From the IMG/VR virus record IMGVR_UViG_2654587570_000002, positions 1-35,662 of that record: a DNA stretch of 35,662 nt. One strand, given 5' to 3'. The notes under the pieces were generated by a model. That model saw only the letters and a program-made list of their open reading frames with translations, was not told the DNA's origin and did no database searches. The translations under genes and the position numbers were made by a program. This document shows, in pieces, positions 1 to 27,249 of the stretch; the first letter of the stretch is position 1; every line of letters begins with the position of its first letter. Source of the stretch: a virus (lineage: Duplodnaviria; Heunggongvirae; Uroviricota; Caudoviricetes).

Positions 1-330
1 AGAATCAGATTAATGACGGCCCAGGCGGAAGCGCAGGAACTTAAAAACGAGCGCGAACGCGGCGAGGTGATTGATACAAAGTTTTGCATCTACGCGATTT
101 CAAAACTAGCGAGTCAGATTTCATCAATCATGGACAGCCTCCCGCTCACAATGCAAAGGCGCTTTCCCGATATAAGGCCGTATATGCTGGATGAACTAAA
201 AAGGGAAATAGCCAAAGCATGTAACGCATGTGCAAGACTTGACGAAAACCTGCCACAGATACTGGCTGATTACCTGATGGAAACTACCGGAAACGCGCCT
301 GAGAAGTTGCTACAGAACAAAGGCGAGTAA
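1..330 (+). CDS. Nu1-type terminase small subunit, C-terminal fragment (5' end lies outside window)
   Basis: Frame is open from base 1; translation ...AQAEAQELKNERERGEVIDTKFCIYAISKLASQISSIMDSLPLTMQRRFPD... resembles the C-terminal half of lambda gpNu1 as recalled; no adjacent large terminase gene follows. Confidence 0.6.
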   Translation, partial: RIRLMTAQAEAQELKNERERGEVIDTKFCIYAISKLASQISSIMDSLPLTMQRRFPDIRPYMLDELKREIAKACNACARLDENLPQILADYLMETTGNAPEKLLQNKGE

Positions 331-403
331 CCGCCGCCCCGTAACGGGCCATAATTCCAGGAAGGACCCGACGACACCAGGCTATCGGAACGATGAGGGC
401 ACA

Positions 404-685
404 ATGACTGAAGCCGAACTACTGGGATTAATCCGCCGCGTCGTCGGAATCAGCCAGCAGCATGACGAACAGGCCACACAGCCGGACAGCGTGACCGCTG
501 AAAATTATGTGCGTGTTGTTGCTGAGGTGATGCGCCGTGATGGTATTGAGCTTAACGGCGTGGATATGCGCAACATACGAACAAGAGTCCTTGAGTTGCT
601 GGCATACCGTCGCCGTTCTCAACAACGGAGGGAGAGCGCGAAAAATACTTACCAGTGGAAGAAGCCGGAACGGTTGCGGCGGTAG
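404..685 (+). CDS. hypothetical protein (93 aa), Arg-rich C-terminus
   Basis: ORF directly downstream of the Nu1-like fragment; no recognisable motif; not similar to a lambda gpA N-terminus. Confidence 0.3.
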   Translation: MTEAELLGLIRRVVGISQQHDEQATQPDSVTAENYVRVVAEVMRRDGIELNGVDMRNIRTRVLELLAYRRRSQQRRESAKNTYQWKKPERLRR

Positions 686-1092
686 ATTCCTGATATTCAG
701 GAAAACCACGAATCTGTGGGGTTTACTGGCGCGGTTACGGCGGTGACACGCACCGAGGCAGAACAATTACCGTAGGTTAAAGCGACAGTATTCACACCAA
801 AGGCAGAAATTAGCGGTTAACGTAACTGACTGATATTTTCGGGAACAGCCAACGGCTGAGGCCGGAGCTATAAAAATAGCTTTGGGTACAGTCCTCAGTT
901 TTGAGGGATGTTAACCAACTGAATAATAAGCAAACCTCAAAATTGAGTTTTGTATCTGCCTGAGTTATTTCTGTGCTAACTTGCTGATATTCCCGATAAC
1001 GTAAAATTGCGTTGGCTGGCAGAGTGCAAATTTGCACGATGGCCTAACCCATTGATTGTTTCGGAAACCTCAATTTGAGGAGGCCGGACAGC

Positions 1093-1127
1093 GTGACGGA
1101 GGGTGACAACCAGTGACACGCCGTGAC
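1093..1127. repeat. four direct GTGAC repeats at exact 10-bp phasing
   Basis: GTGAC begins at 1093, 1103, 1113 and 1123 (cGTGACggag gGTGACaacc aGTGACacgc cGTGACaaaa); one helical turn apart. Confidence 0.5.
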
Positions 1128-1797
1128 AAAAAGACGGTTTAACCATCCATTAAAAATCGACGTGATTTTGTGCTTTCCGTATGAGGTGGCCAGCGTCATT
1201 TTTTAGTGAGAAATTCTGGTCAGGGGCGTTGGCTGAATGGTTATTTTATCGTGCCCATGCACAGGGAGGGGGCGGGTAAAATCTCTGGAGGTGATGCCTG
1301 TCAGGACCGCCGCCTGACCCTTCCTCACATCGCCGCAGGTTCGAAAACTTTTTTTGTGTCAGGTGTGCACGGAATTGATAGGTAAAACCTATATTAAAAA
1401 ATCACGGAAGCCGCGCCATTGCTGGATCAGTCAAAAATTCCACATCTCACGGCAGGCAAAAAAAGCGAATTTTGGGCCAGTTGAGGATAAAAAAGGGCTC
1501 ACTAGTTTTGCACATCCTGGTATCGGGGTCGTCAGCCTCCCGCCAGTAACCAGGTAACTAATCACGCTGGTGGGCATGATGCCGATGCCGGGATCTCGGT
1601 ATCGGTTTATCTGTGATCATCCACCAGCTTGATGACAGATAACAGGGAGTCATAACGATTAAAATTGTATATTTTTGCAGCAAACATTTTTAGCTACACG
1701 TTAAGCTATACGATTTTGAGTTTAAATTTTTTGTATTCAATTAAATCAAATGGTTATATGCACGTTTTGAATACTCTCGTGCCAAAAATCCCTTAAG

Positions 1798-1826
1798 AAC
1801 CAGCCTATTATGGCTGGTTTTTTTAT
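1798..1826 (+). terminator. rho-independent terminator-like hairpin followed by T7 run
   Basis: aaccagcc-tatta-tggctggtt followed by ttttttt; no convincing protein gene upstream on the + strand. Confidence 0.45.
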
Positions 1827-1992
1827 GATTGTTTTTTATGCGGAGAAATACCGGGGAATAATTGGGGTAAAACACCTTTAGGCTATTCACTTAGCCTACC
1901 ACCATCAAAATCTTTCCGAATGTATCCATCTCTTTTTTCTTATGCAGCTAAAACGAAGTCTTGATACTGTTTATTTACACAGATAAGAATAA

Positions 1993-2012
1993 TACTGTCT
2001 ACAAACGCAGTA
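1993..2012. promoter_or_regulatory. LexA (SOS) box-like palindrome upstream of the dinI-like remnant
   Basis: TACTGTCTACAAACGCAGTA fits TACTG-N10-CAGTA; sits 14 bp upstream of the ATG at 2026. Confidence 0.4.
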
Positions 2013-2025
2013 CAAAAGAAGTGTT

Positions 2026-2273
2026 ATGCGTATTGAGATCTCCATAACCAAAGACAAAATGACCAAATGCCAAATGGCGCTGTGGACGCGTTAAAGGAAG
2101 AGTTAACCCAACACATTGGCAAGCGTTATGACGATGTGGAGATGATCGTAAAAGCCACCAGCAACGATAGTTTTTCAGTTAGACATACTGCAGATAAAGA
2201 TTGAGCTAAAACTTTCGTTCAGGAAACTCTGAATGATACCTGAGAGTCTACTGAAGAGTTGTTTGTTCACTAG
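2026..2273 (+). pseudogene. dinI-family gene remnant (frameshifts and in-frame stops)
   Basis: ATG at 2026 gives [11 protein letters not shown] (DinI N-terminus is MRIEVTIAKTS as recalled), then similarity continues in another frame ([22 protein letters not shown]...SVRHTADKD) and after a stop in a third frame (AKTFVQETLNDT-ESTEELFV, compare DinI ...ILQETWESADDWFV). Confidence 0.6.
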
Positions 2274-2628
2274 TTAGCACGTAGGAAATCATTCAATACT
2301 CGCACTATCGGAAGTTCACCAGCCAGTCGTAGCACGTCCTTGCAAACGACGTGCCTACAATTTCAATCACCTCTCACCATCAGTTCTATCAATAATAATT
2401 AAACAGCGCCTAGACAAAATAAATAACAACAAGTCAACAACCTCGACAGGATGCCGATGGGATGATGAAGAGATAAGAAAGAATAACCAGTAAAGCCCTA
2501 AAACGTCAGCGTTCAGACGCGTTTTTTACTTAACCGGTAACAAATACGTTGTATCATAGCAGAATAAAATGATTGTTCTAAATCAGATTAACTCCTCACT
2601 TTTGTACAATGTCGCTTACAGGTATACC

Positions 2629-4518
2629 ATGAAATCCGAGACGCTAACTGTCCAACAACTTTTTCAAGACCGCCGACAATACTGTGTTCCATTCTATCAA
2701 CGTGCCTATGTATGGACTCAGCAAGACCAATGGTCAGCTCTACTGGAGGATATCCTAGAGAAAGCACAATCCCGGCTCTCGGGTACAAAACCAACTCCCC
2801 ATTTCCTTGGTGCGGTTGTACTGGAACCTCAATCAAAAAAAGGATTATTAGGTGTAGATTCCATACATATTATTGATGGTCAGCAACGATTGACCACTCT
2901 TCAATATGTTCTGGCATCCATCCGATTAGCATTACGTGCTACGGATCTTTCCAGCTTAGAGGCTCTCATTTCGCCTTGCCTGAAAAACTCAAACGAAGAC
3001 ACAATGCGAAATAAAGAAGTAGAACGCTTCAAACTGTGGCCAACTTTTCGGGATCAAACTCATTTTATTCAAAGTTTTAATGTTGAAAATATTGACGATC
3101 TCCGGGACGTATTCTCTGATAGTTTCACGCAGCATGGTACGTTGCGTAAGCGTTTTAATCACCCGCCATCACTAGAAGCATTATGTTTTTTTACTAAAGC
3201 CTTTATAAAATGGATTAAAATAGAAAACCACTCACCACAAGAAAATGCTGTAGCTCTAATTGAGGCTGTCTTAACAGATCTGAAACTGGTAAGCATATTT
3301 CTCGAAGCTGAAGATGATGCCCAAATAATTTTTGAAACATTAAATGGGCGAGGGGCGGAACTTCATGCTACGGATCTTATTCGCAACTATATCTTTATGT
3401 GCGCAGAGCATGAAAATATTAATGCTATTGAATTATATGAAAATGAGTGGAAGAGCTTTGAAGATAAATACTGGTCGGAAAAACAACGCCGTGGACGTAT
3501 TAATAAACCACGCATGGAGTGGCTAGTACATGCGACATTGCAATCAGAAAGGCAGCGTGAAATTGATCTGTCTCGCCTTTACAATGAGTATCGTGATTAT
3601 GTAAGTAAGGACTTGTCTTCACAACGAGCAGATCTGCAAGTAAAGCGCCTCAAACAATATGCATTACAATATAAAGAATTGGTTGATGGTTTTGGCACAA
3701 CCCCCATCTCACACTTTGGATATCGCATCGCAGACTATGATGTGACGACACTTTATCCGCTTGCTTTGTTCATTTCGATAGCTAACATCGCTGATGATGA
3801 GAAAGCAGCCATGTATAATGATCTTGTCTCCTACGTAGTACGAAGAGCCGTATGTGGCCTGACGCCAAAGAATTACAACAATGTATTTATGAATGTATTG
3901 CGGCACTTGGCTAAAACGGAAATTTCCAGTGTTGAGTTACGTAATATCCTCAATAACTTAAATGGCGAAGCCTCACGTTGGCCTGGTGACTCAGAATTTC
4001 TCAACGCTTGCATCAATGCTCCACTTTATCCTGGCAGGCTCGACGCACCGAAAATGCGCTCAATGTTAACGGAACTTGAAAGAGAACTTTGTCGCCAAGT
4101 GAAGACCGAAAAGCCTGATGTTCCAAATCTTTCTAATCTCGATATCGATCATCTTATGCCCCAAAGTTGGTATTCCTGTTGGCCTCTCGAAAATGGTCGT
4201 ATGGTGACAAATTCAGATGCTACGGTATTGAACCAAATTGTTCTGTCTGGAACCGATCTTACCCCTGAACAGCTACTGGTAAGGAAACGGCAACAAGCGA
4301 TAGCTACTTTGGGAAATCTAACTTTGCTTAACCTTAGCGTAAACCGTTCTGTTCAGAATGCTGTATTTCTGAAAAAACGTGATGCTCTCATCGTCCACAC
4401 CAATCTACGACTGAACATTCCACTTATAGTTAAGGATAAATGGGATGAGGATGAAATCCTGGAGCGGGGTAAAAATTTGGGGGAAATTGCATTGAAAGTA
4501 TGGCCAAAACACGATTAA
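2629..4518 (+). CDS. GmrSD-like type IV restriction-type nuclease (N-terminal DUF262/ParB-like domain, C-terminal DUF1524 His-Me finger domain)
   Basis: N-terminal FYQRAYVW and IIDGQQRLTTLQ (DGQQR motif); C-terminal LDIDHLMPQSW (DxDH motif); roughly 40% GC against higher-GC tail genes; ORF track opens at 2569 but the ATG at 2629 (MKSETLTVQQLF) is the more typical family start. Confidence 0.8.
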   Translation: MKSETLTVQQLFQDRRQYCVPFYQRAYVWTQQDQWSALLEDILEKAQSRLSGTKPTPHFLGAVVLEPQSKKGLLGVDSIHIIDGQQRLTTLQYVLASIRLALRATDLSSLEALISPCLKNSNEDTMRNKEVERFKLWPTFRDQTHFIQSFNVENIDDLRDVFSDSFTQHGTLRKRFNHPPSLEALCFFTKAFIKWIKIENHSPQENAVALIEAVLTDLKLVSIFLEAEDDAQIIFETLNGRGAELHATDLIRNYIFMCAEHENINAIELYENEWKSFEDKYWSEKQRRGRINKPRMEWLVHATLQSERQREIDLSRLYNEYRDYVSKDLSSQRADLQVKRLKQYALQYKELVDGFGTTPISHFGYRIADYDVTTLYPLALFISIANIADDEKAAMYNDLVSYVVRRAVCGLTPKNYNNVFMNVLRHLAKTEISSVELRNILNNLNGEASRWPGDSEFLNACINAPLYPGRLDAPKMRSMLTELERELCRQVKTEKPDVPNLSNLDIDHLMPQSWYSCWPLENGRMVTNSDATVLNQIVLSGTDLTPEQLLVRKRQQAIATLGNLTLLNLSVNRSVQNAVFLKKRDALIVHTNLRLNIPLIVKDKWDEDEILERGKNLGEIALKVWPKHD

Positions 4519-4540
4519 TGCAATTAATAAAATGATTATA

Positions 4541-4564
4541 GCGGCCTTACCTTAGTAAGGCCGC
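4541..4564 (+). terminator. stem-loop just 3' of the GmrSD-like gene
   Basis: gcggcctta-ccttag-taaggccgc, a perfect 9-bp stem 23 bp after the stop; weak T-tract. Confidence 0.4.
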
Positions 4565-4613
4565 TACTCACTATTAAATACTTTAATTTGCATCAAGAAC
4601 AGCAATGTCAGCC

Positions 4614-4742
4614 CTAGGTCTCGGACTTTGTACCGCTTATCTTGTTTTCAAAAATCAGCTCGCATCCTGCACAGTTCAGCGCATTACGTTGTAGATCTGT
4701 GTTCTGGTCATTTGTTGATACGCGTACATAGCCAATAAGCAT
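4614..4742 (-). pseudogene. Gin/Pin/Hin-family serine invertase gene, N-terminal 41-codon remnant
   Basis: Minus-strand translation from ATG at 4742: MLIGYVRVSTNDQNTDLQRNALNCAGCELIFENKISGTKSET-stop; matches the invertase N-terminus (catalytic-Ser VRVST motif) as recalled, then similarity ends abruptly. Confidence 0.8.
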
Positions 4743-4768
4743 GGTAGATCCCCCTGACAAAAGCAGGA

Positions 4769-5182
4769 ATGATGCCATTTGCTCGTTATTTCTGCATTTT
4801 CATAAACGTTGGTTTGGGAGAAGCAGCAAAACGAGGGGTGGGGACAGGGGAAAATCAGATACCGGACATGACCTCTTTTGCCAGTGGTGATGGATGGATG
4901 AAATTACCCAACGGGAAAATCCTGCAATATGGTCGAGGTGAGGCTATGCCGAAATTATCGACGCAAACAATGAGGATTACATTTCCTATCCCTTTCCCTA
5001 AAAAAGCGGATATCGCCATTCTTACCCATTCTGGCGATGGCGGTGCGCCTTTTGGTGCAGGGCGTGGATTCGTTATGTCCGTAGAAGGCCCAACATTAAC
5101 CGGCTTTAATTCTGCTTACAGAACTGCATCAACCAGCGACAAGGTGTCAATGACTTACAGTTGGTGGGCTGTTGGTGAATAA
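4769..5182 (+). CDS. alternative tail-fibre C-terminal variable domain (silent cassette in present orientation)
   Basis: Shares VGLGE at the crossover site with the constant part and would be in frame with it after inversion; no independent start expected (the ATG at 4769 lies outside the crossover site). Confidence 0.6.
   Translation: MMPFARYFCIFINVGLGEAAKRGVGTGENQIPDMTSFASGDGWMKLPNGKILQYGRGEAMPKLSTQTMRITFPIPFPKKADIAILTHSGDGGAPFGAGRGFVMSVEGPTLTGFNSAYRTASTSDKVSMTYSWWAVGE
4797..4822. repeat. hix/gix-like crossover site (left end of invertible segment)
   Basis: TTTTCATAAACG-TT-GGTTTGGGAGAA; the last 14 bp are identical to the reverse complement of the site at 6717-6742. Confidence 0.65.
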
Positions 5183-5193
5183 TTTTATTCAGG

Positions 5194-5646
5194 ATGATTT
5201 ATATGAACGAATATGTTTATAGCGCAAGGCATAATGCTTTTTTCCCTGTGGATATGATTGATAAATATAAATCAGAGGGATGGGATTTATCAGATGCTAA
5301 GGAGGTGAGTCAAAATATTATCAGTGAATTTATGGCTGAACCGCCACAAGGAAAAATCCGTATTGCCGGAGGTGATGGGCTGCCCGCGTGGGCGGATATT
5401 CCTGCCCCTACGCATGAAGAACTTACTGAAATTACTGAATCAGAAAGACAGCTACTAATTAATCAGGCCAACGATTATATGAACAGTAAACAATGGCCTG
5501 GTAAAGCCGCTATTGGTCGTCTGAAAGGTGACGAACTGGCGCAATATAATTTGTGGCTGGATTATCTGGACGCACTGGAGCTGGTTGATACCTCCAGTGC
5601 TCCAGATATTGAATGGCCTACGCCTCCGGCAGTTCAGGCCAGATGA
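5194..5646 (+). CDS. tail fibre assembly protein (Tfa/U'-like), silent cassette
   Basis: C-terminal ...LVDTSSAPDIEWPTPP, the characteristic Tfa ending. Confidence 0.75.
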   Translation: MIYMNEYVYSARHNAFFPVDMIDKYKSEGWDLSDAKEVSQNIISEFMAEPPQGKIRIAGGDGLPAWADIPAPTHEELTEITESERQLLINQANDYMNSKQWPGKAAIGRLKGDELAQYNLWLDYLDALELVDTSSAPDIEWPTPPAVQAR

Positions 5647-6220
5647 CATCCGGCGCGGTGCTGGTATCTGTTGCCGTCACCGCGTCAGTGTAATCCAGCA
5701 CGGCGTTAAGTCGGGTGTTTTCTGCCTGCGTCAGCTTCCTCCCGGCCTGCAATTTCAGTTGAATCAGACTAATGGAAACCATTGCAGCATCAATCAGCGA
5801 CTGCCGCTGTGTTTCTGCCATGTCTACTGCTGCTCTATGCTGTGCCTCGGTATCCGTCACCCATTTCTCACCATCCCATTTATCGTATGGCGTTAACGGG
5901 GCGATAGTGGTTGTCTTTTCAGGGTAATCACCCGGAGCTGTGATTTCTTTTGATTCTCCTGTTTCGGTGCTATAGACGATTTCACCGCGATGGTCTGGCA
6001 CATATTCCCATGAGTTAAAATCTGCAGAACGGCAAATTGCATAACCAGCTTTATATGAGCCAGGAGCATCTAAACAGGAACATGCCGGGATACCGACACC
6101 CACAGCAAGATATTCGGTTGATGTGGAAATATATTCTCGTGTTTCACCATCATAATTATAAACGGTAATATCTCCCGCCTTTGTGGCGATGAGTTCCTTA
6201 TTTAATATAGCTTTATCCAT
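5618..6220 (-). CDS. tail fibre assembly protein (Tfa/U-like)
   Basis: Strong resemblance to lambda Tfa as recalled (EYVPDHRGEIVYSTETGE..., ...DTSTAPDVIWPELP). Confidence 0.8.
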   Translation of the reverse strand: MDKAILNKELIATKAGDITVYNYDGETREYISTSTEYLAVGVGIPACSCLDAPGSYKAGYAICRSADFNSWEYVPDHRGEIVYSTETGESKEITAPGDYPEKTTTIAPLTPYDKWDGEKWVTDTEAQHRAAVDMAETQRQSLIDAAMVSISLIQLKLQAGRKLTQAENTRLNAVLDYTDAVTATDTSTAPDVIWPELPEA

Positions 6221-6696
6221 CAGGCAGCCCTCACGATATAATTAAAGGCAATGTTACGGGGTCGATTTTCGTTTGCAGTTGGAACAATTCTTGAAGCATC
6301 AAGGCCAATCACTTTTGGGTAAACACCGCCCTCGGACCTTTCTGTCACCATACTTCTGACTAAGGAGAAATAACTATTGTTCGTTGAGGGGTTCAAAGGC
6401 ACCACTGCCCCCTTAAACGAGCCTACTGATTCCCATATTGAATAATTTTCGGTGTTTACAGTCTTGAACTCACCATAGATATTACGTATGGCATCGCCCT
6501 GAGCGGATAATATTGTTCTCCCCGCATCCGCACTACGCCCATCATCCCAGCCACGAATAAATTCACCGCGTAAATCAGGCAATTTATTTGTCGGGTAAGC
6601 CTTTGCCAGTTCCGGGTATTCTTCAGCAGAAAAAGCCGCACCATTGCATTTCAGCCAGCCTGTCGGCGGAGTGGCGGAAGGCCACGGAACAGGCAC
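6220..6696 (-). CDS. tail-fibre C-terminal variable domain with phage tail-collar motif; currently in the -1 frame relative to the constant N-terminal part
   Basis: [35 protein letters not shown]...LPDLRGEF fits the tail-collar domain pattern; track start is a GTG; frame differs from ORF 6651-7019. Confidence 0.7.
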
Positions 6697-7019
6697 ACCG
6701 CAGGTAATGCAGAGCCTTCTCCCAAACCAAGGTTTTCGAGAGCCGTTTTCACCGTGCCATCCGATTTGATATCACCAAACGGATTCTTGCGGCTTAACAG
6801 CAGAGCACGAAGCGCGGTAAGCAACTGGTCGTTTCGCCCCTTCTCCAGGCTGGCACCGGATGCCTCCACCACGCTGCAAAGCTCCTCCTGCAACATATCA
6901 AAGTAGTCATCATCCAGATCGGTGGCAGGTGTGCCGGTCTGGGGGTTACCACGGGTAAAACCGTTCTTACCCGCGCCGAACTTATCCTTCTGCGCGGTTT
7001 TCGTGTCTATACGATGCAT
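6651..7019 (-). CDS. tail fibre, constant N-terminal part (terminates 20 codons past the crossover site in this orientation)
   Basis: [46 protein letters not shown]... resembles Mu S / e14 Stf N-termini as recalled; ...LENLGLGE spans the crossover site. Confidence 0.7.
6717..6742. repeat. hix/gix-like crossover site (right end, inside the tail-fibre gene)
   Basis: + strand TTCTCCCAAACC-AA-GGTTTTCGAGAG; compare hixL TTCTTGAAAACC-AA-GGTTTTTGATAA as recalled. Confidence 0.65.
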
Positions 7020-12080: not shown

Positions 12081-13916
12081 TTACCTGCCAAAGCGCGTAT
12101 AGCCAACATCATGGCTGACATCAAAACCGCTGGATCGCGTTTCCATAACCCGCATACCCGGAGGCGAATTCACAAAAGAGACCTTGATCTCACCATCAAC
12201 TTTTGGCGCAGAAGCTTTGTTAATCATGAAGGGATTCGGGCCTGTGGCATCGGAGGCGTTGTTTGACTGAGCCGGATCTACCGCCGGATAAGGTGTGTAT
12301 CCCCGCGCCGGTATTCCCGTCCCATAAGCATCATAAGCACCCGCGCCCCACTGCGCAGAGTTAATGGCATCGACCGTGTCACCGGAACTGTCGGTAAACC
12401 ACTCAATAATTGGCTTCAGCTTGTCCCACATATTCTGAAACCACTTAACAACCGGTCCCCAGTTATTGATGACCATCCCCAGCGGCGACCAGGCAAAAAC
12501 TTTCTTCAGAAGTTCCCAGCCAGCCTCAAAATAAGGACCAATGGTTTCCCAGAGTTTCTTAAAATAAGGTCCGACAACATCCCAGTTAGTGATAATTAAT
12601 CCCGCAGCCAGGGCTATCGCCGTCGCAATCATGCCAATCGGCGTCATCGACATGATCCTGCTGACAATACTGATGGCACCGCCAACGCCCATCAATCCCA
12701 GTTTCAGAATCGCAAGACCGGCAGCAAGCCCGACGACGCCGCGAATAACCCGGGGATTTTCATCCGCAAACTTCGTGAATTTTTCCCCTAACTCCCCCAG
12801 CCATTGCGTGATATTTTTAGCGTCACCAGAAAATGCGCCGCCAATAGCTGCAAGACCGTTAGTTGCGGTCCCCGTCATTGCCTCCCACAGGTTGGACAGC
12901 GTACCAAGCTGTGCCTGAACACGTTTATTCAGGCTGGCCTGTTTATTCATCTTCTGCTGGATCTGATCGTAGCCATCCTTTCCTTTATCGATTAGTGCAT
13001 TGACCACCTGAAGGGTTTCGGCATCATCACCAAATATTGCCTTAAGTACACCTGTTCGCTTAACGTCGGTCAGTTTTCGCAGCTTTGCCAGTTGCCTGAA
13101 CATGTTATCAAGACCGCCAAAACTTCCTTTGCCGTCAGTAAAATCGAGCTGTACCCCGAGTTTCTGGCGGGCCATGACTTTATTGACGTCCCTGATTTTC
13201 TTAACGCTTAATCCGGACTGGATAACTTTTCGCAGGGCATTACCTGCCGACTCCCCGTTCATCCCCATCTGATCCATCATGACGCTGATGGGGGCAAGGC
13301 TCTGTGCAGCCTGAAGACCGTCCTTGTTCACCATCTTCAGAACAGAGCTGGTTTTAGTGAAGAAGGACAACATGTTGGTATCGTCAACGCCCAGATAAAA
13401 CGCCTTCTGGATAGTGTCGAACAGCCCCATCATGTCTTCTGACGCCGTTCCGGTAGCATCCTGCATCTTTGCGGCAAACTCAGCAGCCGCTTCCGGTGTT
13501 TTTTTCAGTTGTACCGCAAGATAAGCAGTCGCTTTCCCCACACCGCCAAGAATGTTTTCTGCCGGGATCCCCTGACGCACCAGCATCTGCATCATGTTCT
13601 GGAAATCAGCCGTTGTACCGGGTAGCTGGTTACCCAGACCAATAGCCAGTTTATTGATGTCCTGAAAGCTCTTTCCGACCTCACCGTTCGCATCCATCAT
13701 GGCAACTTTCAGCCCGGTGGCGGCGTTTTCCTGATCGGCATAAGATTTCAGGGAAAGCGTCAGACCCGCTGCCAGTCCGCCACCAAGCGCCAGCCCACCC
13801 TGTGACGCTTCTTCCGCCTGGCGTTTAAATCCCCGGATTTTCTTTTGCATTTTCGACAGCGCGGGAGAAAGCCTGTCGACACCGGTGATCAACGCCTTAA
13901 GCTCAAATTCAGCCAT
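12081..13916 (-). CDS. tail tape measure protein
   Basis: 611 aa, Ala/Gly/Gln-rich helical repeats, internal hydrophobic segment, position after the chaperone pair. Confidence 0.8.
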   Translation of the reverse strand: MAEFELKALITGVDRLSPALSKMQKKIRGFKRQAEEASQGGLALGGGLAAGLTLSLKSYADQENAATGLKVAMMDANGEVGKSFQDINKLAIGLGNQLPGTTADFQNMMQMLVRQGIPAENILGGVGKATAYLAVQLKKTPEAAAEFAAKMQDATGTASEDMMGLFDTIQKAFYLGVDDTNMLSFFTKTSSVLKMVNKDGLQAAQSLAPISVMMDQMGMNGESAGNALRKVIQSGLSVKKIRDVNKVMARQKLGVQLDFTDGKGSFGGLDNMFRQLAKLRKLTDVKRTGVLKAIFGDDAETLQVVNALIDKGKDGYDQIQQKMNKQASLNKRVQAQLGTLSNLWEAMTGTATNGLAAIGGAFSGDAKNITQWLGELGEKFTKFADENPRVIRGVVGLAAGLAILKLGLMGVGGAISIVSRIMSMTPIGMIATAIALAAGLIITNWDVVGPYFKKLWETIGPYFEAGWELLKKVFAWSPLGMVINNWGPVVKWFQNMWDKLKPIIEWFTDSSGDTVDAINSAQWGAGAYDAYGTGIPARGYTPYPAVDPAQSNNASDATGPNPFMINKASAPKVDGEIKVSFVNSPPGMRVMETRSSGFDVSHDVGYTRFGR

Positions 13917-23994: not shown

Positions 23995-24345
23995 TTACTT
24001 CAGCCGTTCACGGGCCGTCTTCGCCTTATGACACAGCCAGCACAGACTCTGCAGATTACTGTCGGCATCAGAGCCGCCATGCGCTTTAGGAATGATGTGG
24101 TCAACGGTTTTCGCCTCACGCACCACACCAGCACGCAGACATAACTGACATAAACCTTTATCACGCTTCAGCACACGCGCGCGGATAACATCCCACTTCG
24201 AACCATAGCCGCGCTGGTGACGGGATTGTCCTGGCTTGTATTGTTTCCAGCCTTCGCTTTTGTGGCTTTCGCAGTAGCCTGACGGGTCAGTCGTGGTATT
24301 GCGGCAGCCGCGAACGCGGCAGGCTTTTGGGATTCTAGGGGGCAT
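23995..24345 (-). CDS. HNH endonuclease (terminase-associated)
   Basis: Cys-rich N-terminus and DHIIPKAHGGSDADSNLQSLCWLCH HNH motif; immediately upstream of small terminase. Confidence 0.85.
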   Translation of the reverse strand: MPPRIPKACRVRGCRNTTTDPSGYCESHKSEGWKQYKPGQSRHQRGYGSKWDVIRARVLKRDKGLCQLCLRAGVVREAKTVDHIIPKAHGGSDADSNLQSLCWLCHKAKTARERLK

Positions 24346-24395
24346 ATAAAAAATTTATAATAAGTAAAATAATAAAGAAAAATGCTCAAAGGCAA

Positions 24396-24950
24396 TTATC
24401 TTGACTCAAATACAAATCTAGAAGAGATGAGCTTATCAAGCATTTTCATAAGTAAATCCTTACTCTCACCACCATTTATATATTTATTAAAGTTAGACTC
24501 GAACTCATGCCAAACTTTTTCTAACTCAGTATTATCAAATAAGTGCTCTGTCGCAAACCATGAAGATTGGCAACAATCGAAAATACTCAAAAGCTCATCA
24601 AATCTTTTAACATTCTCTTCTCCCAACTCAATTTGCTGACTAATAAGATCTACATCTTTAAATAGCCATTTCGCAATAACTTGCTCTCGTTCATCATTGA
24701 GTTGCTCGGGGTCAATATTGACAGGCATAAATAATAGAGCTGTCTTTAATTTCTTTAATGCATTCCTAAAATCTATTTTTACTTTTGTTTTCTCTTGTTC
24801 CCTCCACGTAAATAATGCCTTGAACGCCAAAAACAAAGTAACAATAGTAGCTCCAGCACTCACCCAAGATGCAATCATTGCCCAACAAGCCCACTCAGCA
24901 GCAGCACGGTTTGCTACAAGTGTCTCATATGCAATATAATTTTCGTTCAT
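24396..24950 (-). CDS. hypothetical membrane-anchored protein (184 aa) encoded on an AT-rich moron
   Basis: Strong RBS (GAGGTAAAA-ATG), N-terminal hydrophobic helix (WACWAMIASWVSAGATIVTLFLAF), roughly 30% GC island, palindrome CTCACTATTAACAGTGAG just upstream of the RBS. Confidence 0.55.
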   Translation of the reverse strand: MNENYIAYETLVANRAAAEWACWAMIASWVSAGATIVTLFLAFKALFTWREQEKTKVKIDFRNALKKLKTALLFMPVNIDPEQLNDEREQVIAKWLFKDVDLISQQIELGEENVKRFDELLSIFDCCQSSWFATEHLFDNTELEKVWHEFESNFNKYINGGESKDLLMKMLDKLISSRFVFESR

Positions 24951-25027
24951 TTTTACCTCACTGTTAATAGTGAGAGTATTGTAACTAAAAGCATAATAAC
25001 TAGAACAGTCAAATAAAAATATTTCAC

Positions 25028-25306
25028 CTAATGAATATTATTATTCAAATGCAGATTGTACTTTTGCTCTCCTAACCTACGAAGATCAGACTTATCACGG
25101 TTACATAGCCCCAGTGCTGATAGCAGACTTACATTCAAACTAAGACTATCCCCATAAGTCAGAGGATTGGGTATAACTGGCTGTGGAGTTTCAGCGAGCA
25201 GGTTCGCCGGTAACGGTATCGTTGGAACCTGCACGTATACTGTCCGCGTACTTCCGCAACCGGTCAGCAGCGACATCAGGCACAGGGCGTGAAGCGCAAT
25301 CATCAT
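25028..25306 (-). CDS. Rz1-like o-spanin lipoprotein (overlapping Rz in another frame)
   Basis: MMIALHALCLMSLLTGC lipobox followed by Pro-rich sequence; embedded in and extending past the Rz gene. Confidence 0.5.
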   Translation of the reverse strand: MMIALHALCLMSLLTGCGSTRTVYVQVPTIPLPANLLAETPQPVIPNPLTYGDSLSLNVSLLSALGLCNRDKSDLRRLGEQKYNLHLNNNIH

Positions 25307-25583
25307 CCGCAACAGCCACTTTGATATCTTCCTGGGTTCTCTGTGACTCCAGTGCGATCTGCTGTTTTGCATGCTGGTTAGCCTCCAAAACTGTATTGAC
25401 GATTTGCATTGATTGCAGGACGTTATTGGTAATGGCAGTTGCTGATTCAGCATTTTGTAAAGCCTCATCAGCACGTTTCTTTTCGTACTGATATTTGCTG
25501 TAGTAGTAGTTGGCTGACCAGATGAAAGAACCAATGGCAGTAACGAAAAAAGCAGCGATAATCAGCTTATAACTCAACTTCAT
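25191..25583 (-). CDS. Rz-like i-spanin
   Basis: N-terminal TM helix then coiled-coil; follows the endolysin with overlap. Confidence 0.7.
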   Translation of the reverse strand: MKLSYKLIIAAFFVTAIGSFIWSANYYYSKYQYEKKRADEALQNAESATAITNNVLQSMQIVNTVLEANQHAKQQIALESQRTQEDIKVAVADDDCASRPVPDVAADRLRKYADSIRAGSNDTVTGEPAR

Positions 25584-26043
25584 TTACCACCCCACCAGCC
25601 TCTTTAAATCGGGCAATCAGGTCACCGATTTTATGTTCATACTGACCGTAACCTGCGCCCGGCAGTGAAGCCCAGATATTGCTGCAACGATCGATAGCCT
25701 GACGGATATCACCGCGATCAATCATCGGTAAAGCGCCACGCTCTTTAATCTGCTGCAATGCCACTGCGTCCTGGCTTTTGGGGGAGAAGTCTTTCAGACC
25801 AAGCTGTTTACGGTAAGCATCCCACCATCGGGAAAGAATCTGGTAGCGTCCAGCAGCCGTTGATTTAAGTTTTGGGTTTAGCGTGACAAGTTTGCGAGGG
25901 TGGTCGGAGTAATCAGTGAAGAGTTCACCACCGACAATAACGTCATAACCGTGGTTACATGTCGGTTGCCGTCCATTATCCGTTCCTTCTGACCATGCCA
26001 CCATATCGAGGAAAGCTTTACGCTGGGAATTTAGTACCTGCAT
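25567..26043 (-). CDS. R: endolysin, lambda R-type lytic transglycosylase
   Basis: NSQRKAFLDMVAWSEGTDNGRQPTCNHGYDVIVGGELFTDYSDHPRKLVTLNPKLKSTAAGRYQ... is near-identical in pattern to lambda gpR as recalled. Confidence 0.9.
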   Translation of the reverse strand: MQVLNSQRKAFLDMVAWSEGTDNGRQPTCNHGYDVIVGGELFTDYSDHPRKLVTLNPKLKSTAAGRYQILSRWWDAYRKQLGLKDFSPKSQDAVALQQIKERGALPMIDRGDIRQAIDRCSNIWASLPGAGYGQYEHKIGDLIARFKEAGGVVNEVEL

Positions 26044-26459: not shown

Positions 26460-27249
26460 TTATTTCCCCACCAGTTCACTTACCTCTTTCACTGTCTGGT
26501 TAAACCGATCTGACTCAAGCTCAACACCTAACGCCCGACGCCCCAGCTCCATTGCTGCTTTTATTGTGGAACCAGATCCCATAAAAAAATCAGCAACCAG
26601 ATCACCTGGTCGACTACTGGCATTGATTATTTGCCGGAGCATATCCGCCGGTTTCTCACACGGATGTTTACCCGGGTAGAACTGAACGGGTTTATGCGTC
26701 CAGACATCGGTATAAGGCACGGAGACTGATACGGAGAAATAGCGCCGGAGAGATTTAAACTCATCCAGCAATTCAGAATATTTGCGATTCAGTGAATCAT
26801 AAGATGCCACCAGCTGGTGGTGTGTCTGTTCCAGTTGTTGTTCCTGAAACTTCTCTGCCGCTATACGGGAAAACAGTGCCTGCAACTTCCGGTAGTCAGC
26901 CTCATTCGGCAACTGCCACTGACTGGCACCAAACCAGTGGGAAACCATGTTTTTCTTACCAGTGTTCACGCATCATGATCTCGATATCAGATGCCAGGCG
27001 ATGTCCACAGAACAGGTAAAGGCTTCCGGCAGGTTTCAGCACCCGCCAGAACTGAGCCAGACAGTGGTCCAGCCACTTAAGGTAATCTTCGTCCCCTTTC
27101 CACTGATTGTCCCAACCGTTGGGCTTCACTTTGAAGTACGGCGGATCGGTAACTATCAGGTCAATGGAATCATCAGGCAGGGACTGAATAAAATGCAGGC
27201 AATCAGCGTTGATTAAATCAACACTGTTTATTTTTACAGTATTTTTCAT
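26460..27249 (-). pseudogene. beta-class DNA methyltransferase (motif IV DPPY then motif I FxGxG), split into two ORFs by a frameshift
   Basis: ORF 26956-27249 has IDLIVTDPPYF; ORF 26460-26969 has DLVADFFMGSGSTIKAA; the two overlap by 14 nt in different frames. Confidence 0.65.

What the first reader, a model, noticed from the sequence alone, without database searches (positions are those of the whole stretch)
2497..4620. AT-rich GmrSD-like (DUF262 + DUF1524) nuclease gene inserted where the invertase gene used to be
A 629-aa protein has an N-terminal DGQQR motif (IIDGQQRLTTLQ, DUF262/ParB-like) and a C-terminal DxDH His-Me-finger motif (LDIDHLMPQSW, DUF1524). That is the domain pair of GmrSD/BrxU/SspE-type modification-dependent (type IV) restriction enzymes. 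The gene is markedly AT-rich relative to the tail genes, has its own promoter-like sequence and a terminator hairpin (4541-4564), and abuts the truncated invertase gene at about 4615. In e14-type prophages the same slot beside the invertible fibre segment holds pin and the type IV restriction gene mcrA, so this looks like a defence-cargo hotspot with a different payload.
Basis: partly seen in the sequence, partly recalled or inferred. Interest (0 to 1): 0.75.

Follow-up and report, generated by a model that had tools for sequence, protein, structure and literature searches.

The report
Known GmrSD restriction gene on prophage
The gene is a near-identical copy of the already characterised E. 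coli enzyme GmrSD, which cuts the sugar-modified DNA of T4-like phages; it sits in a prophage slot where relatives carry other anti-phage genes, so the finding is correct but not new.

Summary
Window 2629-4518 (+) encodes a 629-aa protein with Pfam GmrSD_N (DUF262) and GmrSD_C (DUF1524). It is GmrSD itself, not merely GmrSD-like. It is 623/629 identical to UTI89_C2960, the published "UT" GmrSD, and 92.7% identical to the biochemically characterised Eco94GmrSD. All residues shown essential there are conserved.

The gene occurs in 306 of 5,426 complete E. coli genomes. In every locus inspected it lies at the tail-fibre end of an SfII/e14-like prophage, a placement reported in 2015.

Comparison with relatives defines a 2,264-bp cassette (2357-4620). 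It replaced the last ~143 codons of the pin invertase gene and the short spacer before a dinI-like gene. All three allele groups share the junction, implying one ancestral event. No terminal repeats were found.

Among 39 related loci, the gene after pin was PD-T4-3 (11), McrA (8), GmrSD (2), RnlAB (1) or, behind two small ORFs, Ppl (1). This supports the cargo-slot idea qualitatively.

Side result: the fibre segment between the 20-nt repeats (4804-4823 and 6716-6735) lies in opposite orientations in UTI89 and IHE3034, whose proteins outside the segment have the same accessions. It has therefore flipped since pin was truncated.

Novelty: already known. Interest: low.

The parts
2629..4518 (+). 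gmrSD coding sequence. 629 aa, stop codon included. UT-type allele of the type IV restriction endonuclease GmrSD.
   Evidence: ORF. Pfam GmrSD_N and GmrSD_C. PADLOC mREase_IV matched over its full length at 1407.6 bits. 623/629 identical to UTI89 WP_000834402.1. One residue different from SFE8 WP_000834401.1.
2357..4620 (.). gmrSD cassette. This is the DNA present here but absent from relatives that keep pin and dinI adjacent.
   Evidence: Right edge: homology to e14 and other pin genes stops at 4621. Left edge: homology to the pin-distal dinI block of L033, L031, L074, L083 and L053 ends at 2356. No terminal direct or inverted repeats were found.
2530..2557 (+). Promoter-like site TTAACC-16-TATCAT upstream of gmrSD. 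Unproven.
   Evidence: Consensus scan gives 9/12 matches, and the number of such sites is not above chance. The -10-like TATCAT is invariant across four loci spanning the three allele groups, in a region that is otherwise 88% identical.
4539..4566 (.). Perfect 12-bp hairpin with a 4-nt loop, between the convergent gmrSD and pin' genes.
   Evidence: z=-7.15. Called as a terminator on the minus strand only.
4621..4742 (-). pin' remnant, the first ~41 codons of a Pin/Gin-family serine invertase. It includes the position where the Fis-dependent enhancer is expected by analogy with hin.
   Evidence: Pfam Resolvase 9e-8. tblastn with PinE covers residues 1-44 at 93%. 96% nucleotide identity to e14 pinE. 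RefSeq annotates the homologues as 'recombinase family protein, incomplete'. The enhancer position is inferred from PMC3798978 and from a Fis-like 15-mer centred 99.5 bp from the crossover centre.
4804..4823 (.). Crossover site next to pin (left inverted repeat).
   Evidence: 20-nt inverted repeat, 95% complementary with 6716-6735. The inversion breakpoints in L008 fall exactly here.
6716..6735 (.). Crossover site inside the tail-fibre gene (right inverted repeat).
4824..6715 (.). Invertible segment carrying two alternative fibre C-termini and two tail-fibre assembly genes.
   Evidence: Pfam Gp53-like_C, Caudo_TAP (twice) and Collar. The segment is found inverted in WP2-S18-ESBL-07 relative to SFE8 and the window, and in IHE3034 relative to UTI89.
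2284..2356 (.). Conserved block that in relatives lies directly downstream of an intact pin. It marks the left junction of the cassette.
   Evidence: Matches L053 13158-13087, about 20 nt after the end of the pin match at 13068. YF-1 and L060 homology to the window begins at 2284/2285.
2026..2246 (+). dinI-like pseudogene, the ancestral neighbour of pin. It is now separated from pin by gmrSD.
   Evidence: RefSeq calls the homologue 'DinI-like family protein, frameshifted; internal stop'. Intact 82-aa DinI genes occupy the same position in L033 and L031. The sequence is shown.

Best explanation
Window 2629-4518 is a functional-looking allele of E. coli gmrSD. It is one residue from WP_000834401 and six from the published UT enzyme UTI89_C2960.

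**How the enzyme works (from the literature on its close homologues).** GmrSD is a single-chain type IV, modification-dependent restriction endonuclease. The N-terminal DUF262 domain, with the DGQQR motif, binds NTP. The C-terminal DUF1524 domain is a His-Me-finger (HNH-type) nuclease with D507, H508 and N522. The NTP-stimulated enzyme cuts incoming DNA that carries 5-hydroxymethylcytosine or its glycosylated forms, which means the DNA of T-even phages. The UT allele type is reported to restrict T2, T6 and RB69 but not T4, and to be insensitive to the T4 inhibitor IPI*.

**How the gene is carried (shown here).** It rides as a 2.26-kb low-GC cassette (2357-4620) at the tail-fibre end of an SfII/e14-like prophage with a Mu-like tail. 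One ancestral illegitimate recombination put it between pin and dinI and deleted pin codons ~42-184.

**Shown versus inferred.** Shown here: identity, domain content, conserved catalytic residues, cassette limits, the shared junction, and population distribution. Taken from the literature for 93-99% identical proteins: substrate and phage range. Inferred: expression from the 2530-2557 promoter-like site and termination at the 4539-4566 hairpin.
For: **Identity and domains**
- Pfam GmrSD_N 3.9e-34 and GmrSD_C 3.7e-20.
- PADLOC mREase_IV, 629/629 model positions, 1407.6 bits.
- 623/629 identical to UTI89 WP_000834402.1.
- 583/629 identical to Eco94GmrSD, using the sequence from Fig. S1 of PMC4437046. 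E271, E273, E278, K280, D507, H508 and N522 are conserved.

**Published activity**
- Eco94GmrSD cleaves glc-5hmC and 5hmC DNA and is ATP-stimulated. D507A, H508A and N522A are dead. [quoted passage not shown]
- The UT enzyme restricts T2 and T6, does not restrict T4, and is insensitive to IPI*. The UTI89 enzyme restricts RB69.

**Distribution and context**
- The gene is full length in 300 of the 306 E. coli genomes that carry it, always on the chromosome.
- The exact protein is on record in NCBI, in a 90%-identity cluster of 1,185 members.
- The same dinI'-gmrSD-pin'-fibre context is seen in UTI89, SF-173, SFE8, YF-1, WP2-S18-ESBL-07, IHE3034, L027 and L060.
- The junction is identical in all three allele groups.
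Against: - Purified UTI89_C2960 was inactive on T4, T2 and T6 DNA under every condition tried (supplement of PMC4437046). In-vivo restriction by UTI89 has therefore not been tied biochemically to this protein, and UTI89 has a second GmrSD homologue (UTI89_C5048).
- This window's allele differs from the UT enzyme at six residues, and their effect is unknown.
- The surrounding prophage is decaying. It has pin', dinI', a frameshifted fibre gene and a split methyltransferase. Silent loss of function cannot be excluded from sequence alone.
- One relative (L060) carries gmrSD with an internal stop.
- The promoter is not demonstrated.
Confidence: 0.88

Rival explanations
1. The gene is an inert relic. 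The ORF is intact, but the protein no longer restricts anything and is simply carried along in a degrading prophage.
For: - Purified UT enzyme showed no nuclease activity or DNA binding in vitro, and the UTI89 prophage could not be induced.
- Neighbouring genes are pseudogenes: pin', dinI', the fibre frameshift and a split methyltransferase.
- L060 gmrSD has an internal stop.
Against: - A 1,890-nt ORF is kept full length in 300 of 306 carrier genomes, across alleles that differ by up to 7%.
- Every residue shown to be essential is retained.
- The UT enzyme is reported to restrict T2, T6 and RB69 in vivo.
- The 92.7%-identical Eco94 enzyme is active.
Confidence: 0.1
2. It is a DUF262/DUF1524 enzyme of a different functional type. 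One option is an SspE-like sensor of phosphorothioate status. Another is a BrxU-like enzyme with broad 5mC/5hmC range acting as part of a larger system, rather than a stand-alone enzyme against glycosylated hmC.
For: PADLOC also reports weaker matches to SspE (1.5e-17, N-terminal 120 residues only), to HEC-06 and to 'Orf5' models. The domain pair is shared by all of these.
Against: - The full-length, near-identical match is to mREase_IV and to the UT and Eco94 GmrSD sequences.
- The SspE matches cover only the N-terminal motif region.
- Nothing resembling ssp, dnd or BREX partner genes lies next to the gene. Its neighbours are dinI' and pin'.
- The cassette contains a single gene.
Confidence: 0.03
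3. The gmrSD/pin' arrangement arose repeatedly by independent insertions into a recombination-prone invertase gene, rather than once.
For: In related prophages pin is truncated at many different points: residues 1-26, 1-67, 1-96, 1-104, 1-134, and 3' fragments only. Different cargo genes abut these truncations.
Against: All gmrSD loci examined share the same junction to the nucleotide, apart from a 1-nt indel. This holds for the 99%, 96% and 93% allele groups.
Confidence: 0.05

Closest known systems
UT GmrSD (UTI89_C2960, WP_000834402.1) of uropathogenic E. coli UTI89
   Same: 623/629 residues are identical. Length is the same. The neighbours are the same (dinI' - gmrSD - pin' - invertible fibre segment - ymfQ) on the same SfII-like prophage type.
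   Different: Six substitutions: A46V, R175H, K190E, L346S, A559S and N616K, written window to UT. In UTI89 the prophage end lies by ssrA and carries further genes, PD-T4-3 and a DpnII/MboI-REase-domain protein. Here the prophage abuts a PICI-like element and those genes are absent.
Eco94GmrSD (WP_000834395) and CT596 GmrS/GmrD, the founding and biochemically characterised members
   Same: 92.7% identical, 629 aa, same domains. The catalytic D507/H508/N522 and E271/E273/E278/K280 are conserved. Both are prophage-borne, next to tail-fibre genes.
   Different: There are 46 substitutions, 30 of them in the first 200 residues. In that stretch, comparison with the CT-like L060 allele shows synonymous changes also raised (29 nonsynonymous and 45 synonymous codons in 1-200), which looks like mosaic ancestry rather than clean positive selection. 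The CT/Eco94 type restricts T4 lacking IPI* and is inhibited by IPI*. The UT type is reported not to restrict T4 and to ignore IPI*.
pinE-mcrA end of cryptic prophage e14 (E. coli K-12)
   Same: Same prophage module, with 96% nucleotide identity over ymfQ, the constant part of the fibre gene and the 5' end of pin. Same slot between the invertase and the prophage end. Also a type IV restriction enzyme with an HNH-type nuclease.
   Different: e14 keeps an intact 184-aa PinE, and mcrA is co-directional with it. Here pin is cut at codon ~41 and gmrSD is convergent. McrA and GmrSD are unrelated in sequence: tblastn with McrA finds only the HNH gene next to the terminase genes at 23998-24189.
BrxU (GmrSD-family enzyme with a solved structure, in a BREX island of E. 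fergusonii)
   Same: DUF262 plus DUF1524 architecture and NTP-stimulated nuclease activity (review PMC12707154).
   Different: Too distant to be found by phmmer against PDB sequences. The only hit was 9jfl, a DUF262 protein, at 2.6e-8 over the N-terminal domain. BrxU also cuts 5mC DNA and sits in a plasmid defence island, not a prophage fibre slot.

Membership tests
GmrSD family of type IV restriction endonucleases | N-terminal DUF262 (PF03235) domain with the DGQQR motif | tested here: met
   Pfam GmrSD_N 3.9e-34, full profile 1-199. DGQQR at residues 83-87.
GmrSD family of type IV restriction endonucleases | C-terminal DUF1524 (PF07510) His-Me-finger domain with the (D/E/H)HxxP motif | tested here: met
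   Pfam GmrSD_C 3.7e-20, profile 1-137 of 138. D505-I-D507-H508-L-M-P present.
GmrSD family of type IV restriction endonucleases | Residues shown by mutagenesis to be required in Eco94GmrSD (D507, H508, N522; E271/E273; E278/K280) | tested here: met
   All seven are identical at the same positions. The mutagenesis data are in PMC4437046 and its supplement.
GmrSD family of type IV restriction endonucleases | Close sequence relationship to an experimentally studied member | tested here: met
   99.0% identical to the UT enzyme and 92.7% to Eco94GmrSD. PADLOC mREase_IV scores 1407.6 bits over 629/629 positions.
GmrSD family of type IV restriction endonucleases | Modification-dependent, NTP-stimulated cleavage of hmC or glycosyl-hmC DNA, and restriction of T-even phages | not testable with these tools
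   Published for Eco94/CT596, and in vivo for the UT type. Purified UT protein was inactive in vitro.
Pin/Gin-type invertible tail-fibre module (e14 P segment type) | Pair of inverted crossover sites, one inside the fibre gene | tested here: met
   20-nt inverted repeat at 4804-4823 and 6716-6735, 95% complementary. It matches the e14 sites.
Pin/Gin-type invertible tail-fibre module (e14 P segment type) | Two alternative fibre C-termini, each with its own assembly chaperone, in opposite orientation | tested here: met
   Gp53-like_C plus Caudo_TAP on the + strand, and Collar plus Caudo_TAP on the - strand. The alternative fusion is in frame and gives a 220-aa product.
Pin/Gin-type invertible tail-fibre module (e14 P segment type) | Adjacent intact serine invertase gene | tested here: not met
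   Only residues 1-44 of 184 remain, and there is no other Pin homologue in the window.
Pin/Gin-type invertible tail-fibre module (e14 P segment type) | Segment actually found in both orientations | tested here: met
   L008 against the window and SFE8: an exact inversion between the two repeats. UTI89 against IHE3034: GmrSD, YmfQ, baseplate J and both Tfa proteins have identical accessions, and the segment is flipped.
SspE (phosphorothioate-sensing DUF262/DUF1524 defence protein) | Full-length similarity to SspE and linkage to sspABCD modification genes | tested here: not met
   The PADLOC SspE models match only about 120 N-terminal residues (E=1.5e-17, against 0 for mREase_IV). The neighbours are dinI' and pin', not ssp genes.
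Prophage defence-cargo hotspot (as described for P2 and P4) | Conserved flanks with variable, mostly defence-related cargo in related elements | tested here: met
   39 YmfQ-anchored loci had a pin homologue and enough downstream DNA to read. The first gene after pin was PD-T4-3 in 11, McrA in 8, GmrSD in 2 and RnlAB in 1. Ppl followed two small ORFs in 1. EcoRII R-M lay behind PD-T4-3 in 3. dinI and the integrase followed in 9, seven directly and two behind a DUF4145 ORF. The sample is biased towards E. coli and the loci are not independent.

The most novel reading that the evidence does not exclude
The slot next to pin in e14/SfII-type prophages may be a specialised hotspot against T-even phages. 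Cargo recovered there includes McrA, GmrSD, PD-T4-3 and RnlAB, each of which has been tied to T-even phages or hydroxymethylcytosine DNA. The slot is also physically coupled to an invertible fibre segment that can itself block T2 adsorption, as reported for e14.

A second part of this reading concerns the 122-nt pin' stump. It may persist not by accident but because it still holds the Fis-dependent recombinational enhancer. That would let invertases from other prophages keep flipping the segment after gmrSD destroyed the resident pin.
Probability: 0.3. Interest if true: 0.45.

Novelty: already known. Interest (0 to 1): 0.15.

Why it matters
The finding has little importance as a discovery. The enzyme family was founded on this very protein lineage. 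The prophage location next to the tail-fibre genes was reported in 2015. Standard defence-annotation tools already call the gene.

The analysis does have some practical value:
- It gives exact cassette limits (2357-4620), which is what would be cloned to test the native allele.
- It shows that all alleles descend from one insertion into pin.
- It documents that the pin-adjacent slot of this prophage family exchanges several defence genes.
- It shows that the fibre segment keeps inverting without its own invertase. That fits the recent report that PinQ flips the e14 segment in trans.

Tried and rejected
- **Attachment site.** I asked whether the sequence at 1770/1782-1826, shared by the PICI-like flank and by the ssrA-context prophages, is an att core. 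No second copy lies near the SFE8 integrase and there is no tRNA or tmRNA in the window. The question is unresolved and I make no att claim.
- **Transposition scars.** I looked for terminal direct or inverted repeats at the cassette ends and found only chance-level matches. There is no evidence for transposition.
- **Deposited phages.** A megablast of 1770-4620 against 50,697 phage records found only the dinI block at 82% and no gmrSD. The "phage" records with the closest pin (vB_EcoM-611R5 and -606R2) include host genes at their ends (yfhH, pgpC, tadA) and also carry a truncated invertase.
- **Fis-site motif scan of pin'.** One plausible 15-mer lies at the expected ~100 bp. The distal partner is ambiguous, at 49 or 72 bp. 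The result is suggestive only.
- **Orientation counts.** I tried to count orientations across all genomes with junction queries. The counts are confounded by intact-pin prophages and by diversity of fibre alleles. I report only individually verified pairs.
- **Selection on the N-terminal domain.** Nonsynonymous and synonymous counts per region show the first 200 codons are more diverged at both kinds of site. I do not claim positive selection.
- **Other checks.** An Rfam scan of the whole window found nothing. A sequence search of PDB found only 9jfl. Structure prediction, fold search and the large protein searches were not run, because 99% identity to a studied enzyme made them uninformative.
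Full report
**1. What is in the sequence**

An ORF runs 2569-4518 on the + strand. From the ATG at 2629 it encodes 629 aa, and RefSeq uses the same start for all homologues. Pfam gives GmrSD_N (PF03235, E=3.9e-34) and GmrSD_C (PF07510, E=3.7e-20). The PADLOC model mREase_IV is matched over all 629 positions at 1407.6 bits. DGQQR lies at residues 83-87 and DIDH at 505-508.

GC content is 0.414 for the gene and 0.557 for the tail genes. The invertible fibre segment (0.469) and the region 1770-2628 (0.388) are also low.

A perfect 12-bp hairpin lies at 4539-4566 (z=-7.15). The consensus scan calls it a terminator only on the minus strand.

The short ORF at 4614-4778 (-) is the 5' end of a serine invertase gene (Pfam Resolvase, 9e-8).

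**2. Identity**

The protein is 623/629 identical to WP_000834402.1 of E. coli UTI89. That is UTI89_C2960, the "UT" GmrSD of He et al. 2015 (PMC4437046). It differs by one residue from WP_000834401.1 of strain SFE8.

Using the Eco94GmrSD sequence printed in that paper's Fig. S1, identity is 583/629, or 92.7%. All residues shown to matter by mutagenesis are conserved: E271, E273, E278, K280, D507, H508 and N522.

The exact sequence is already in NCBI, in a 90%-identity cluster of 1,185 members.

The gene is present in 306 of 5,426 complete E. coli genomes, always on the chromosome. The hits fall into three identity bands: 99% or more (123 genomes), 95-99% (99) and 90-95% (84).

The finding is therefore GmrSD itself, not a GmrSD-like novelty.

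**3. How it works**

This part rests on the literature for proteins that are 93-99% identical.
- Eco94GmrSD is an ATP-stimulated endonuclease that prefers glc-5hmC and 5hmC DNA.
- D507A, H508A and N522A abolish its activity.
- It restricts T4 lacking IPI* by more than 10^6-fold.
- The UT type is reported to restrict T2 and T6 but not T4, and to be insensitive to IPI*. The UTI89 enzyme restricts RB69 (PMC6024577).

One caveat matters. Purified UT protein was inactive in vitro under every condition tried, and the UTI89 prophage could not be induced.

**4. Context and the "insertion" claim**

The window from about 1827 onward is an SfII/e14-like prophage with a Mu-like tail. It is collinear at ~97% with the SFE8 prophage over most structural and early genes. 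He et al. already noted that gmrSD lies immediately downstream of the tail-fibre genes of an SfII-like prophage.

e14 in K-12 reads ymfQ-stfP-tfaP-tfaE-stfE'-pinE-mcrA-attR. The window matches it at 96% over ymfQ, the constant part of the fibre gene and the 5' end of pin.

The two cassette edges are defined as follows.
- **Right edge.** Homology to e14 pinE, and to the closest invertase genes in phage records, stops at 4621, about codon 41 of 184.
- **Left edge.** Relatives with an intact invertase carry a dinI-like gene about 70-170 nt beyond the pin stop. That block matches window 2356 down to 1959.

The 2,264 bp at 2357-4620 are therefore extra. They replaced pin codons ~42-184 and the spacer. 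dinI is now a pseudogene. The junction is the same in the 99%, 96% and 93% allele groups, so there was one ancestral event. No terminal repeats flank the cassette.

**5. Is the slot a cargo hotspot?**

I anchored on YmfQ and fetched 109 loci from IMG/VR and from GTDB species representatives. Thirty-nine of them had a Pin homologue and at least 600 nt beyond it.

| Gene found after pin | Loci | Evidence |
|---|---|---|
| PD-T4-3 (GIY-YIG; PADLOC 2.4e-140) | 11 | |
| McrA | 8 | |
| dinI then integrase (7 directly, 2 behind a DUF4145 ORF) | 9 | |
| GmrSD | 2 | |
| RnlA/RnlB | 1 | Pfam, |
| Ppl, behind two small ORFs | 1 | |

The remaining seven loci carried unknown or unrelated genes directly after pin.

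The EcoRII restriction gene (PADLOC REase_II), together with its apparent methyltransferase partner, lay behind PD-T4-3 in 3 loci. AbiTii lay beyond gmrSD in L027, the same protein length as in SFE8.

In UTI89, PD-T4-3 and a DpnII/MboI-REase-domain protein lie between dinI' and ssrA.

Pin is truncated at many different points in these loci (residues 1-26, 1-67, 1-96, 1-104, 1-134, or 3' fragments only).

The sample is dominated by E. coli and the loci are not independent, so this is qualitative support. It matches the general, already published idea of prophage defence hotspots.

**6. Side result: the fibre segment still flips**

The 20-nt inverted repeats at 4804-4823 and 6716-6735 bound a 1.9-kb segment.

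In WP2-S18-ESBL-07 the flanks are collinear with the window and the segment is exactly inverted.

UTI89 and IHE3034 carry GmrSD, YmfQ, baseplate J and both Tfa proteins with identical accessions, but the segment is in opposite orientations.

Both pairs share the same pin' stump, so inversion must have occurred after the truncation, presumably through an invertase supplied in trans. PinQ of the Qin prophage has been shown to invert the e14 segment in trans (PMC12529663).

The hin enhancer is 65 bp long and lies about 100 bp from a hix site (PMC3798978). The stump keeps 192 bp from the crossover centre. It contains a Fis-like 15-mer centred 99.5 bp away. Retention of the enhancer is inferred, not shown.

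**7. State of this particular prophage**

In the present orientation the fibre gene is broken by a 1-nt deletion near position 6700, relative to SFE8 and YF-1. The alternative orientation would give an intact 220-aa fibre. A DNA methyltransferase gene is split across 26460-27249. The left flank, 1-1826, is the end of a PICI-like element, as seen in strain N12.

**8. Verdict**

The object is already known, both as an enzyme and in its prophage location. The cassette limits, the single origin of the junction, the qualitative hotspot survey and the trans-inversion evidence are modest additions.

Noticed in passing
window 4804-6735; L007 (UTI89) vs L120 (IHE3034); L001 (SFE8) vs L008 (WP2-S18-ESBL-07): The invertible tail-fibre segment is found in both orientations among strains that share the same truncated pin' and near-identical flanks. 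It has therefore inverted without a resident invertase, presumably in trans.
   Followed up: yes
window ~6700 (ORFs 6651-7019 and 6220-6696, minus strand): The tail-fibre gene is frameshifted by a 1-nt deletion just downstream of the crossover site, relative to SFE8 and YF-1. Flipping the segment would restore an intact 220-aa fibre.
   Followed up: partly
window 4621-4742: The pin' stump covers the position where the Fis-dependent enhancer lies in hin, about 100 bp from the crossover site. It contains GTATCAACAAATGAC centred 99.5 bp from the crossover centre. The distal Fis site is ambiguous.
   Followed up: partly
window 1-1826: The left flank is not this prophage. It matches at 99.5% the end of a satellite-like element in strain N12 (primase, SSB, major capsid, head decoration and small terminase genes) next to yejO/narP. 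This looks like a capsid-forming PICI.
   Followed up: partly
window 1770/1782-1826 (hairpin 1795-1822): A stretch of about 45-57 bp that includes a terminator-like hairpin is shared by the PICI-like flank and by the prophage end in ssrA-context strains. No second copy lies near the SFE8 integrase. Whether it is a recombination junction or an att site is unexplained.
   Followed up: partly
window 2026-2246: A dinI-like pseudogene with frameshifts and an internal stop. Intact 82-aa versions sit directly beside pin in relatives (L033, L031).
   Followed up: partly
window 26460-27249 (minus strand): A DNA methyltransferase gene is split into two overlapping ORFs of 97 and 169 aa. Together they cover one PADLOC MTase_II model, so this is probably a frameshifted orphan methylase.
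   Followed up: no
window 24346-25630: This block between the HNH/terminase genes and the lysis genes is not shared with the otherwise collinear SFE8 prophage. The 500-base composition window 24501-25000 has GC 0.36. It holds a 184-aa ORF (24396-24950) that matches only phrog_6169, of unknown function, with no Pfam or PADLOC hit. It may be a second moron slot.
   Followed up: partly
L007 796-2949 (UTI89); L027 15901-16821; L001 5049-5969 (SFE8): Relatives carry more defence genes just beyond gmrSD and dinI'. UTI89-type strains have PD-T4-3 and a DpnII/MboI-REase-domain protein. L027 has an AbiTii-like 306-aa protein, and SFE8 has a hypothetical protein of the same length (WP_001072750.1) at the same position. 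This window lacks all of them.
   Followed up: partly
L009 6089-7253 (vB_EcoM-611R5) and L010: Deposited 'phage' records that include host genes at their end have an invertase cut at 104 aa. An unknown 281-aa convergent ORF starts 4 nt from it and has no Pfam or PADLOC hit. This is another example of cargo abutting a truncated pin.
   Followed up: partly
L060 13077-14963: The gmrSD copy of the ~93% allele group in this IMG/VR prophage has an internal stop codon, so some carriers have lost the gene's function.
   Followed up: no
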